From Escherichia virus TH42, in sequence record MT446413.1: a DNA stretch of 64,000 bases. One strand, 5' to 3'. The notes beneath the pieces were generated by a model that was not told where the DNA came from, ran no database searches, and saw nothing but the letters and a program-made list of their open reading frames with translations. Shown one piece after another: positions 19,053 through 19,350 of the stretch (positions within the stretch are counted from its first letter, which is position 1; each line of letters starts with the position of its first letter). A program made the position numbers and the translations under genes.

Positions 19053-19072
19053 AAACCCTCCTATTTGATTTG

Positions 19073-19224
19073 GTGGACTATCTGGAATCGAACCAGAAGC
19101 TCACTAAGAAAGCAATTCCCACTGTTATAAAAGCACTTGCCTCAACAGGGATACACTAACTCTGGTGCCGTACCCATACTAGCCCTTGTTTAAAATTGGT
19201 CGGGACGGAAGGATTCGAACCCTC
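19073..19224 (-). other. two tRNA 3'-half-like motifs (T-arm plus acceptor 3' strand) with no detectable 5' acceptor partner
   Basis: Minus strand TCTGG-TTCGATT-CCAGA (~19081-19097) and GAGGG-TTCGAAT-CCTTC-CGTCCCG-A-CCA (~19197-19224, CCA encoded). Confidence 0.3.
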
Positions 19225-19248
19225 TTACGTTGATTTAAAAGCTCTTAG

Positions 19249-19327
19249 CGGGGGTTACAGGACTCGAACCTGCATACTCCAGTTACTCGGTTAACGCCCG
19301 TTTAGAAGACGGGTGAGATAAACCCCC
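19249..19327 (-). tRNA. tRNA-like element: 7-bp acceptor helix, T-arm, hairpin presenting UCU (Arg-like), but no canonical D-arm by hand folding
   Basis: Minus-strand RNA GGGGGTT...CCCGT-CTTCTAA-ACGGG...GCAGG-TTCGAGT-CCTGT-AACCCCC-G; flanked by 9-bp inverted repeat AAGCTCTTA/TAAGAGCTT; coordinates +/-1. Confidence 0.35.
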
Positions 19328-19350
19328 ATTAAGAGCTTTCAATATTTTGT

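What the first reader, a model, noticed from the sequence alone, without database searches (positions are those of the whole stretch)
19064..19338. Cluster of three tRNA-like elements that do not fold as canonical tRNAs
Seen in sequence: three minus-strand matches to the tRNA T-arm consensus (GGTTCGATTCC, GGTTCGAATCC, GGTTCGAGTCC) lie within 200 bp. Element C (~19249-19327) has a perfect 7-bp acceptor helix and a hairpin presenting UCU in a 7-nt loop (Arg-like), but it lacks a D-arm and has a 23-nt variable region, and it is bracketed by a 9-bp inverted repeat (AAGCTCTTA / TAAGAGCTT). Elements A and B have a T-arm plus acceptor 3' strand (B with encoded CCA) but no complementary 5' acceptor strand within 100 nt, and B's expected 5' half overlaps C. 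Inference: either one or two genuine but unusual phage tRNAs that hand folding cannot resolve, or tRNA 3'-half mimics and decoys. The nucleotidyltransferase at 1723-3159 could service them.
Basis: partly seen in the sequence, partly recalled or inferred. Interest (0 to 1): 0.55.

Follow-up and report, generated by a model that had tools for sequence, protein, structure and literature searches.

The report
Rearranged-core arginine tRNA in phages
Of the three tRNA-like elements, one appears to be a working arginine tRNA with a rearranged core, from a large phage family I could not find described and that ARAGORN and most genome annotations miss; the second is a recombination scar and the third a conserved tRNA-like RNA of unknown role.

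Summary
In detail: three T-arm motifs lie within 190 bp on the minus strand (0.08 expected by chance). The window is a Kuravirus-like E. coli podophage.

Element C (19246-19327) belongs to a large phage-only family. It was found in 225 GenBank phages, at least 60 IMG/VR contigs and no complete E. coli genome. It has normal acceptor, anticodon (UCU) and T arms but no D hairpin. Instead, nt 11-13 pair with nt 40-42 across the anticodon arm, and a D-loop-like UAAYUGGAGUAU follows. Covariation supports all four helices (98% paired; 0/500 shuffles).

With the anticodon left free, the same layout appears only with Arg anticodons (ACG, CCU, CCG, GCG), apart from one UAU. In phage tRNA clusters it fills the missing Arg(UCU) slot. 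In sister Kuraviruses the same site holds a canonical tRNA-Arg(UCU). C is therefore most likely a functional, non-canonical tRNA-Arg. The window's copy is the variant without encoded CCA, set on a 12-bp leader-trailer helix.

Element B is the 3' remnant of a canonical tRNA-Arg gene, left by recombination at GAGGGTT.

Element A is a 115-nt Kuravirus-specific module with a 6-bp acceptor stem, a T arm and CCA. It is strongly conserved; its function is unresolved.

Ten full-text searches found no description of this architecture.

The parts
19328..19339 (-). Leader arm (AAAGCUCUUAAU) that pairs with the trailer and extends C's acceptor stem
   Evidence: 11 of 12 positions pair with the trailer. 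11 of 18 family members without encoded CCA have 9-12 of 12 paired, with unrelated sequences. The 31 CCA-encoding members average 3.9 of 12. The hairpin fold has z = -4.84.
19246..19327 (-). Element C: non-canonical tRNA-Arg(UCU), 82 nt including discriminator G and CUA. Position p maps to coordinate 19328-p.
   Evidence: Family covariance model R1 scores it 101.3 bits, against 37 bits or less for ordinary tRNAs. Rfam tRNA gives 36.4 bits. ARAGORN finds nothing.
19321..19327 (-). C acceptor stem, 5' strand (GGGGGUU); it pairs with 19250-19256
   Evidence: All 7 pairs show compensatory changes; 99.1% of cells are paired.
19315..19317 (-). C nt 11-13 (CUC): 5' strand of the short helix that encloses the anticodon arm
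   Evidence: 100% paired with nt 40-42. Pair 12:41 is UA35/AU8/GC5/CG1 and pair 13:40 is CG41/UA5/GC3. An independent non-UCU set shows CUC/GAG, CAC/GUG, CGG/CCG, CCC/GGG and CGC/GCG.
19297..19313 (-). C anticodon arm: 5-bp stem, loop CUUCUAA, anticodon UCU at 19304-19306
   Evidence: Four of 5 stem pairs covary. The loop is the same in all UCU-family members, including those found by BLAST rather than by the search pattern.
19289..19296 (-). C 8-nt bulge on the 3' side (C GUUAA CC)
   Evidence: CGUUAA is invariant in the UCU family, partly because the search pattern required it. Other Arg isoacceptors have a 3-5-nt bulge such as YGAAA or AGAA.
19286..19288 (-). C nt 40-42 (GAG): 3' strand of the helix that encloses the anticodon arm
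19274..19285 (-). C 12-nt D-loop-like connector (UAACUGGAGUAU); GG then A are candidate G18, G19 and A20
   Evidence: The motif UAA-n-UGGA is shared by all five Arg-anticodon subfamilies. A20 is the main bacterial ArgRS determinant (PMC9976931). The equivalence to A20 is inferred.
19257..19273 (-). C T arm (GCAGG UUCGAGU CCUGU)
   Evidence: 98.8% of cells paired, with 3 covarying pairs.
19238..19249 (-). Discriminator G (19249), CUA in place of CCA, and the trailer arm (GCUAAGAGCUUU)
19218..19235 (-). Duplicated copy of the downstream gene's ribosome-binding region (AAUCAACGUAAGAGGGUU), fused to B at GAGGGUU
   Evidence: 17 of 18 nt match the sequence that follows the tRNA in phage SU7 (AATCAACGTAGGAGGGTT). 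The second copy lies at 19050-19070.
19197..19224 (-). Element B: 3' remnant (T arm, 3' acceptor strand, A, CCA) of a canonical 'type II' tRNA-Arg(UCU) gene
   Evidence: Identity to Bas91 and TH43 begins exactly at GAGGGTT and continues through A. The intact 76-nt tRNA is called by ARAGORN in L004, L006, L008 and L009.
19071..19185 (-). Element A: 115-nt tRNA-like module. Acceptor GGGCUA (19180-19185) pairs with UAGUCC (19075-19080); T arm 19081-19097; A then CCA at 19071-19074.
   Evidence: Found only in 29 GenBank Kuraviruses at 96% identity or more, and in no IMG/VR contig. Its presence/absence boundaries in relatives coincide with G1 and CCA. It is 98-100% identical where flanking DNA is 80-93%. 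No tRNA or tmRNA call.

Best explanation
Element C is a functional arginine tRNA (anticodon UCU, reading AGA and probably AGG) with a rearranged core. It has no D hairpin. Nucleotides 11-13 pair with three nucleotides that lie 8 nt after the anticodon stem. This short 'D-stem' therefore closes the anticodon arm rather than a D-loop. The D-loop-like sequence UAAYUGGAGUAU follows it and leads straight into a normal T arm.

I infer that this keeps the usual stack of D stem on anticodon stem and the GG/T-loop elbow contact, and that it still presents an A20-like base, C35, U36 and G73 to the host ArgRS. None of these steps has been shown.

The window's copy is the variant without encoded CCA. Its acceptor stem continues into a 12-bp leader-trailer helix. 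I infer that it is cut out of the polycistronic early transcript by a double-strand-specific or RNase P/E-type route, trimmed, and given CCA by a nucleotidyltransferase.

Element B is an inert scar. A crossover at the 7-nt microhomology GAGGGTT, between the downstream gene's ribosome-binding site and the T arm of a canonical tRNA-Arg gene, brought in the 3' end of that gene together with element A.

Element A is a separate, conserved tRNA-like RNA with a 6-bp acceptor stem, a T arm and CCA. It is probably processed like a tRNA. Its function is unknown.
For: Shown:
(1) Structure. In 49 distinct UCU-family sequences, 98.3% of cells pair in the four-helix model. The covariation score is 0.786 against 0.197 for shuffles (0/500 reach it) and 0.10-0.16 when partners are slid. 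The helix across the anticodon arm is 100% paired, with 4 and 3 pair types at its variable pairs.
(2) The same helix covaries in an independent set of 35 sequences with other anticodons.
(3) Arginine specificity. Architecture-only scans that leave the anticodon free gave ACG 26, CCU 12, CCG 1, GCG 1 and one UAU. Together with UCU, that is five Arg anticodons.
(4) Slot filling. Of 73 loci carrying C, only 1 has a separate canonical tRNA-Arg(UCU). None of the 29 loci with 10 or more tRNAs has one, although 15 of those carry other Arg isoacceptors.
(5) Allelic replacement. At the same intergenic site, sister Kuraviruses carry a canonical tRNA-Arg(UCU) of type I or II, while the window, 1-6af and Bas94 carry C and no tRNA that ARAGORN can find.
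(6) tRNA hallmarks. U8 and A9, a 7-nt anticodon loop with U33 and A37, a GGUUCGAnUCC T loop, discriminator G (29) or A (19), encoded CCA in 32 of 49, and positions inside phage tRNA clusters.
(7) Demand. AGA makes up 8.3 per 1000 codons and 16% of Arg codons in the window's ORFs.
(8) Distribution. 225 GenBank phages, at least 60 IMG/VR contigs, 3 MAG contigs among 185,579 species genomes and no complete E. coli genome.
(9) B. Identity to Bas91 starts at GAGGGTT.
(10) A. It is conserved well above its flanks.
Against: There are no expression, end-mapping, aminoacylation or decoding data. The three-dimensional equivalence to a canonical tRNA is inferred from sequence alone. The window's copy lacks CCA (it has GCUA), and its discriminator is base-paired inside a 19-bp helix, which would hinder RNase P unless other cuts come first. 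Part of the 'invariance' in the alignment was imposed by the search pattern. The slot-filling count used partial loci (about 10 kb of flank or less), not whole genomes. The single-sequence fold of C is not unusually stable (z = -1.25). For A, there is no covariation and no convincing fold (z = -1.49).
Confidence: 0.7

Rival explanations
1. C is a tRNA-Arg mimic that does not decode. It could be a decoy or sponge for a host tRNA-Arg-directed nuclease or modification enzyme, or a processing or stability element within the mRNA.
For: There is no D hairpin. A sizeable subclass, including the window's copy, lacks CCA and is locked into a long leader-trailer helix, which could stop it maturing into a chargeable tRNA. 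tRNA-targeting defence systems are common.
Against: A decoy would not need to replace the canonical tRNA-Arg(UCU), yet it does so in 72 of 73 loci and at the Kuravirus site. Most members encode CCA, and 48 of 49 UCU-family members have a G or A discriminator. The family has spread across five Arg anticodons while keeping a standard anticodon loop, as expected for decoders.
Confidence: 0.15
2. The window's copy of C, and the locus as a whole, is decaying debris from repeated homing-endonuclease and recombination events: a pseudogene next to scars.
For: B is certainly a scar. The arrangement C+B+A occurs in only one other record, the near-identical HC-25922. C lacks CCA. HNH homing endonuclease genes interrupt or flank this tRNA site in relatives.
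Against: The window's C scores 101.3 bits, close to the family's top scores of 103-104, and keeps every invariant position. Its leader-trailer helix is the conserved, covarying design of the CCA-less subclass. It is the only tRNA-like Arg decoder in 64 kb of a phage that uses AGA heavily.
Confidence: 0.1
3. Element A is a decayed tRNA-Gln-derived pseudogene or a mere processing signal, not a functional RNA in its own right.
For: Its T arm and 3' acceptor strand nearly match the 3' end of a T4-like phage tRNA-Gln, while the rest does not align as a tRNA. No stable fold was found. A 6-bp acceptor match 109 nt away could arise by chance; my rough estimate is about 0.3.
Against: A is 98-100% identical across relatives whose flanks are 80-93% identical. 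The module's boundaries coincide exactly with G1 and CCA. The four natural substitutions all fall in positions predicted to be unpaired, which is weak and post hoc.
Confidence: 0.4

Closest known systems
Canonical bacterial and phage tRNA-Arg(UCU), such as the type I and II tRNA-Arg of sister Kuraviruses, T4 tRNA-Arg and E. coli argU
   Same: 7-bp acceptor stem, U8 and A9, a 5-bp anticodon stem with loop CUUCUAA, a standard T arm, a G or A discriminator, CCA in most members, and the same genomic site and anticodon as the canonical gene in relatives.
   Different: There is no D hairpin between nt 10 and 26. The D-stem-like helix encloses the anticodon arm, and the D-loop-like segment lies 3' of it. 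There is an 8-nt bulge. ARAGORN misses it in all but one of 73 family-bearing loci (in L020 it made an over-long 94-nt call), and most GenBank records leave it unannotated or call it tRNA-OTHER or Undet.
D-armless metazoan mitochondrial tRNA-Ser(AGY/GCU)
   Same: There is no D hairpin, and the 5' connector pairs with the region 3' of the anticodon stem. [quoted passage not shown]
   Different: The mitochondrial tRNA has an eroded T loop and no tertiary core. The phage family keeps a canonical GGUUCGAnUCC T loop and an invariant GG-containing connector, so an elbow is probably kept (inferred). It is also viral or bacterial, specific for Arg, strongly conserved rather than eroded, and presumably charged by a standard bacterial ArgRS.
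Class II tRNAs with a long variable arm (Leu, Ser, Tyr)
   Same: Rfam's tRNA model places about 20 extra nucleotides between the anticodon and T arms.
   Different: Those nucleotides do not form a hairpin of their own. Candidate pairings within them do not hold across members, and the CCG/UGG stem in the single-sequence fold would need nt 40 and the invariant G48/G49. Instead they pair back to nt 11-13. Class II tRNAs also keep a D arm.
Free-standing homing endonucleases in phage tRNA gene clusters, such as T4 SegB (PMC2330249, listed; title and abstract only)
   Same: In relatives, an HNH gene sits inside the D-loop-coding part of the type I tRNA-Arg gene and is followed by a replacement tRNA of type II or C. 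This fits homing with co-conversion of flanking DNA and accounts for the mosaic C/B/A locus.
   Different: The window itself has no endonuclease gene at this site. Cleavage specificity was not tested.
tmRNA tRNA-like domain and other tRNA-like stable RNAs (for element A)
   Same: Acceptor helix, T arm and CCA without a recognisable anticodon arm; a G3:U70 pair with an A discriminator, read directly from the sequence.
   Different: A is only 115 nt, has no tag reading frame, gets no ARAGORN tmRNA call, and matches Rfam tmRNA models only across the T arm (E of 2.4 or more).

Membership tests
tRNA (Rfam RF00005; canonical cloverleaf) | Score at or above the curated gathering threshold | tested here: met
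   C scores 36.4 bits against a threshold of 29. A and B have no match even at E up to 10.
tRNA (Rfam RF00005; canonical cloverleaf) | D arm: a hairpin formed by nt 10-25, between the acceptor and anticodon stems | tested here: not met
   Only 7 nt (UAUCUCA) separate the acceptor and anticodon stems. Rfam aligns 4 nt where the model has 15. ARAGORN makes no call.
tRNA (Rfam RF00005; canonical cloverleaf) | 7-bp acceptor stem, 5-bp anticodon stem with a 7-nt loop (U33, purine 37), and a 5-bp T stem with a GUUCRANYC loop | tested here: met
   All three helices covary, and the loops are conserved across the family.
tRNA (Rfam RF00005; canonical cloverleaf) | A mature 3' CCA, encoded or added, and aminoacylation | not testable with these tools
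   CCA is encoded in 32 of 49 family members, but the window's copy has CUA. Charging was not tested.
Rearranged-core phage tRNA-Arg class (defined here) | G7-U8-A9-U10-C11; nt 11-13 paired with three nt that follow the anticodon arm; then UAA-n-UGGA and a canonical T arm | tested here: met
   The window's C scores 101.3 bits with model R1, against 84-104 bits for other full-length members and 37 or less for ordinary tRNAs. Its CUC/GAG pair set is the commonest type.
Rearranged-core phage tRNA-Arg class (defined here) | An arginine anticodon | tested here: met
   C has UCU. In the wider class the anticodons are UCU, ACG, CCU, CCG and GCG, with one UAU exception.
Bacterial tRNA-Arg identity set (A20, C35, U/G36, A/G73; PMC9976931) | C35, U36 or G36, and an A or G discriminator | tested here: met
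   C has U34-C35-U36 and discriminator G. Across the UCU family the discriminator is G in 29, A in 19 and U in 1.
Bacterial tRNA-Arg identity set (A20, C35, U/G36, A/G73; PMC9976931) | A20 in the D-loop variable pocket | tested here: inconclusive
   An invariant A follows the invariant GG in the relocated D-loop-like connector in every subfamily. Whether it occupies the A20 position in three dimensions cannot be tested here.
D-armless mitochondrial-type tRNA | D arm replaced by a connector that extends the anticodon helix, together with an eroded T loop and a lost tertiary core | tested here: not met
   The first part is met. The second is not: the T loop is canonical and a GG motif is kept. 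C resembles this type in one respect but is not a member.
tmRNA or permuted tmRNA (considered for element A) | A tRNA-like domain plus a tag reading frame and pseudoknots; detection by ARAGORN or Rfam | tested here: not met
   ARAGORN finds no tmRNA. The Rfam tmRNA models match only across the T arm (plus the 3' acceptor strand for the permuted model), at 8.5-11.2 bits against gathering scores of 47-84.
Truncated tRNA gene fragment (element B) | Collinear identity to part of an intact tRNA gene in relatives, with the remainder missing | tested here: met
   28 of 28 nt are identical to the 3' end of the Bas91 and TH43 tRNA-Arg. Identity ends abruptly 5' of GAGGGTT.

The most novel reading that the evidence does not exclude
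Phages infecting both Proteobacteria and Actinobacteria share an arginine-specific class of tRNAs with a permuted core. The D stem closes the anticodon arm, and the D loop has moved to the 3' side. These molecules would still form an L shape, be charged by host ArgRS and decode all Arg codon boxes. The class would have arisen once and spread to five anticodons, moving between phages with homing-endonuclease cassettes. The remodelled core may be kept because it escapes host tRNA-directed nucleases or endonucleases that recognise the D-arm-coding DNA. If so, D-armless tRNAs are not confined to animal mitochondria, and current tRNA finders systematically under-count phage tRNA-Arg genes.
Probability: 0.5. 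Interest if true: 0.9.

Novelty: new variant of a known kind. Interest (0 to 1): 0.8.

Why it matters
tRNA is among the most structurally constrained molecules known, and D-armless tRNAs have been regarded as a peculiarity of animal mitochondria. This work finds a strongly conserved, covariation-supported tRNA-Arg architecture without a D hairpin in hundreds of phages. They include well-known ones (FelixO1, phi92-like phages, jumbo Asteriusvirus, Streptomyces phages), and in most records the gene is unannotated.

If these molecules are charged and used, several things follow:
- They give a natural test of which parts of the tRNA core are needed by ArgRS (the only synthetase keyed to D-loop A20), EF-Tu, RNase P, the CCA-adding enzyme and the ribosome.
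- Phage tRNA inventories and codon-supplementation analyses would need correcting.
- A scaffold of possible use for orthogonal tRNA engineering becomes available.
- A new question about phage-host and endonuclease arms races at tRNA genes becomes directly testable.

The two maturation designs, CCA-encoded versus hairpin-embedded without CCA, also open a tractable RNA-processing problem.

Tried and rejected
- **Standard detectors.** ARAGORN finds nothing in the window. Rfam at gathering and at relaxed thresholds returns only the D-armless alignment of C, plus T-arm-only tmRNA fragments for A.
- **Single-sequence folding.** Folds of C and A are not unusually stable and miss the key helix. RNAalifold also misses the 3-bp helix, which needed explicit pair counting.
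- **A variable-arm hairpin inside the 20-nt insert.** Rejected. Nt 38-39 and 46-47 do not appear to covary, and the CCG/UGG stem in the single-sequence fold uses nt 40 of the covarying helix and the invariant G48/G49.
- **C as a degraded copy of the neighbouring canonical tRNA.** Rejected on family-wide conservation.
- **B as a decoy.** Rejected; it is a scar.
- **A as tmRNA, as a member of the C family, or as an interrupted tRNA-Gln.** No support beyond the 3' end.
- **More homologues of A.** Two IMG/VR scans and a BLAST search found nothing outside near-identical Kuraviruses.
- **The ORF at 1723-3159 as a CCA-adding enzyme.** It matches only a PHROG named 'nucleotidyltransferase', with no Pfam, NCBIfam or PDB match. 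The link stays speculative.
- **The 14-base pattern GTATCTC-N6-CTACGAA.** It returned mostly chance hits in coding DNA and was replaced by a 21-base architecture pattern.
- **A defence-nuclease explanation.** Two recent tRNase papers gave nothing specific to tRNA-Arg cores.
- **Literature.** Ten full-text searches found no description of a D-armless or permuted phage tRNA.

Full report
**Setting.** The window is 99.8% identical over the queried 601 bp to Escherichia phage vB_EcoP_HC-25922 (Kuravirus, Gordonclarkvirinae). The finding lies in a 298-bp minus-strand intergenic gap. The gap sits between an ORF ending at 19351 and a 46-codon ORF starting at 19052. No sigma-70-like promoter was found in 18700-19900 on either strand, and the one terminator-like site is on the plus strand. 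The RNAs would therefore be cut from a polycistronic transcript.

**Checking the observation.** GGTTCGANTCC occurs three times in 64 kb, all here and all on the minus strand, against 0.08 expected. ARAGORN reports no tRNA or tmRNA in the whole window. Rfam reports one tRNA match, element C at 19249-19327. Its acceptor, anticodon and T arms are aligned, but the D arm is reduced to 4 nt and 20 extra nt precede the T arm. The description of C is therefore accurate.

**What relatives carry at this site.** Sister phages have a canonical 76-nt tRNA-Arg(UCU) at the same intergenic site, in two sequence types:
- Type I is in SU7, ECBP2 and UKE3.
- Type II is in Bas91, YF01, O18-011 and TH43.

In Bas91, TH43, 1-6af and O18-011, an HNH homing endonuclease gene (Pfam HNH_3) sits directly after a 5' fragment of the type I gene, which is broken within or just after its D-arm-coding region. 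A replacement tRNA follows it: type II, or a homologue of element C in 1-6af. YF01 has the HNH gene and type II tRNA, but the stretch I read does not show the type I fragment.

**Element B.** The window matches Bas91 continuously from GAGGGTT through element A to the next gene's ribosome-binding site, with one mismatch. Upstream of GAGGGTT the similarity drops to background. The 18 nt before B (AATCAACGTAAGAGGGTT) repeat the ribosome-binding region that follows the tRNA in SU7, and a second copy lies after A. B is thus the 3' 28 nt of a type II tRNA-Arg gene. It was joined by a crossover at the 7-nt microhomology GAGGGTT. B is a scar, not a decoy.

**Element C is one of a large family.**
- BLAST finds homologues of about 85% identity in 225 phage records: phi92-like Justusliebigvirus, Felixounavirus, jumbo Asteriusvirus, Erwinia and Klebsiella phages, Streptomyces phages and other Kuraviruses. 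Most are unannotated, and a few are labelled tRNA-OTHER or Undet.
- They lie inside tRNA gene clusters.
- A pattern limited to the single-stranded motifs found 60 IMG/VR contigs, but only 3 MAG contigs among 185,579 species genomes.
- No complete E. coli genome has a match.

**The structure of C.** In 49 distinct sequences a four-helix model pairs 98.3% of cells. Its covariation score is 0.786, against 0.197 for shuffles (0 of 500 reach it) and 0.10-0.16 for slid partners. The helices are:
- the acceptor stem, 1-7 with 72-78;
- the anticodon stem, 15-19 with 27-31;
- the T stem, 55-59 with 67-71;
- a 3-bp helix, 11-13 with 40-42, that spans the anticodon arm. It is 100% paired. Pair 12:41 is UA/AU/GC/CG and pair 13:40 is CG/UA/GC.

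RNAalifold and single-sequence folding miss this last helix. After it comes UAAYUGGAGUAU, which resembles a D loop in having GG followed by A.

A covariance model built on this structure scores full-length family members at 84-104 bits (the window's C at 101.3) and ordinary tRNAs at 37 or less.

**The layout is specific to arginine.** One intermediate hit (57.7 bits) has the same layout with anticodon ACG. Scans of IMG/VR that fix only the architecture gave these anticodons:
- with U34 excluded: ACG 26, CCU 12, CCG 1 and GCG 1, all arginine;
- with U34 and a non-C35: a single UAU.

In 35 distinct sequences from these scans (34 with non-UCU anticodons), the cross-arm helix again covaries: CUC/GAG, CAC/GUG, CGG/CCG, CCC/GGG and CGC/GCG. 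The bulge is shorter (3-5 nt) and the connector is 12-13 nt.

**Evidence that it decodes.**
- Of 73 C-bearing loci, only one has a separate canonical tRNA-Arg(UCU). None of the 29 loci with 10 or more tRNAs has one, though 15 of those carry other Arg isoacceptors.
- Within Kuraviruses, C, type I and type II are interchangeable at one site.
- The discriminator is G or A in 48 of 49, and CCA is encoded in 32 of 49.
- These features match the bacterial Arg identity set of A20, C35, U/G36 and A/G73 (PMC9976931). The A20 equivalence is inferred.
- The window's ORFs use AGA for 16% of Arg codons, or 8.3 per 1000. From my own recollection this is several-fold above E. coli usage.

**Inferred three-dimensional logic (not tested).** If the short helix stacks on the anticodon stem, a set of equivalences to the canonical core follows:
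- strand 40-43 can take the place of canonical 10-13 (G40 in 84% of sequences would be G10, paired to C13 as C25);
- strand 10-13 can take the place of 22-25;
- A14 would be purine 26;
- the invariant U10-U43 pair would be the often non-Watson-Crick 13:22 pair;
- A44 and A45 would be A14 and R15, G48 and G49 would be G18 and G19, A50 would be A20, and U54 would be Y48.

On this mapping, most canonical core positions have a counterpart.

**Two maturation designs.** The 31 CCA-encoding members show no leader-trailer pairing (mean 3.9 of 12 positions). By contrast, 11 of the 18 members without CCA have 9-12 of 12 positions paired, with unrelated sequences. The window has 11 of 12, and its whole hairpin folds with z = -4.84. 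The window's copy therefore needs 3' trimming and CCA addition. The processing route is inferred. The ORF at 1723-3159 is only a PHROG 'nucleotidyltransferase'.

**Element A.** A is a 115-nt unit, from GGGCUAG to UAGUCC-A-CCA.
- Its edges coincide with presence/absence boundaries among relatives.
- It occurs only in 29 GenBank Kuraviruses and in no IMG/VR contig.
- It is 98-100% identical where flanking DNA is 80-93% identical.
- Its T arm and 3' strand resemble a T4-like phage tRNA-Gln, but the interior does not align or fold as a tRNA.
- Its function is unknown. It is probably a processed, tRNA-like stable RNA or processing module.

**Comparison with known molecules, and novelty.** The closest structural analogue is the D-armless mitochondrial tRNA-Ser(GCU), whose D-replacement loop extends the anticodon stem (PMC9427863). 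That molecule has lost its T-loop core, whereas the phage class keeps it. A 2020 review of non-canonical tRNAs mentions no phage case, and ten full-text searches found none. I therefore rate C as a new structural variant of tRNA, pending experimental proof of charging and decoding.

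Noticed in passing
L004:1707-2129, L007:1294-1734, L008:1275-1691, L006:1708-2157 (relatives; no gene at this site in the window): HNH (Pfam HNH_3) homing endonuclease genes lie at this tRNA site. In Bas91, 1-6af and O18-011 (and TH43, L009) a 5' fragment of the type I tRNA-Arg gene, broken in or just after its D-arm-coding region, precedes the HNH gene. 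A replacement tRNA (type II or the rearranged type) follows directly downstream. This looks like homing with co-conversion that swaps tRNA alleles.
   Followed up: partly
L005:1654-1770 (ECBP2), minus strand: ECBP2 has a different 95-nt element in the slot occupied by A: a long hairpin ending in CUACCA (GUCCCUAAGAUGC...GCAUCUUGGGGCUACCA). It is very stable, at -44.4 kcal/mol with z = -5.55.
   Followed up: partly
L238:1732-1787 (IMG/VR 3300005613_000005): One member of the rearranged-core class has anticodon UAU (loop CUUAUAA), which would read Ile AUA. It may be an identity switch away from arginine.
   Followed up: no
window 1723-3159 (-): A 478-aa ORF with an N-terminal GGAIRD...DVDIF motif. 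It matches PHROG 12715 'nucleotidyltransferase' (E = 2.7e-155) but has no Pfam, NCBIfam or PDB sequence match. Any CCA-adding or tRNA-repair role is untested.
   Followed up: partly
L016:2003-2085 (Klebsiella phage fENko-Kae01): This family member has CUUUAA in place of CGUUAA and an irregular 3' acceptor strand (CGCCATCGCCCAGCCA). It may carry a 4-nt insertion or be a decaying copy. It scores 84.4 bits with model R1.
   Followed up: no
L047:1522-1692 (IMG/VR 3300044475_000188): This is the only locus found with both a rearranged tRNA-Arg(UCU), of the hairpin-embedded design without CCA, and an adjacent canonical tRNA-Arg(UCU). It would be useful for asking whether the two are redundant.
   Followed up: no
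L053:6424-6703: A phage contig carrying the rearranged tRNA-Arg(UCU) also encodes a tmRNA (tag ANSMNASAFALAA) and canonical Arg GCG, UCG and CCU tRNAs. The rearranged gene completes its Arg set.
   Followed up: no
window 19050-19070 and 19218-19235 (-): The downstream gene's ribosome-binding region (AAUCAA..UAGGAGGGUU) is present twice. The upstream copy is non-functional and fused to B, marking the recombination junction.
   Followed up: yes
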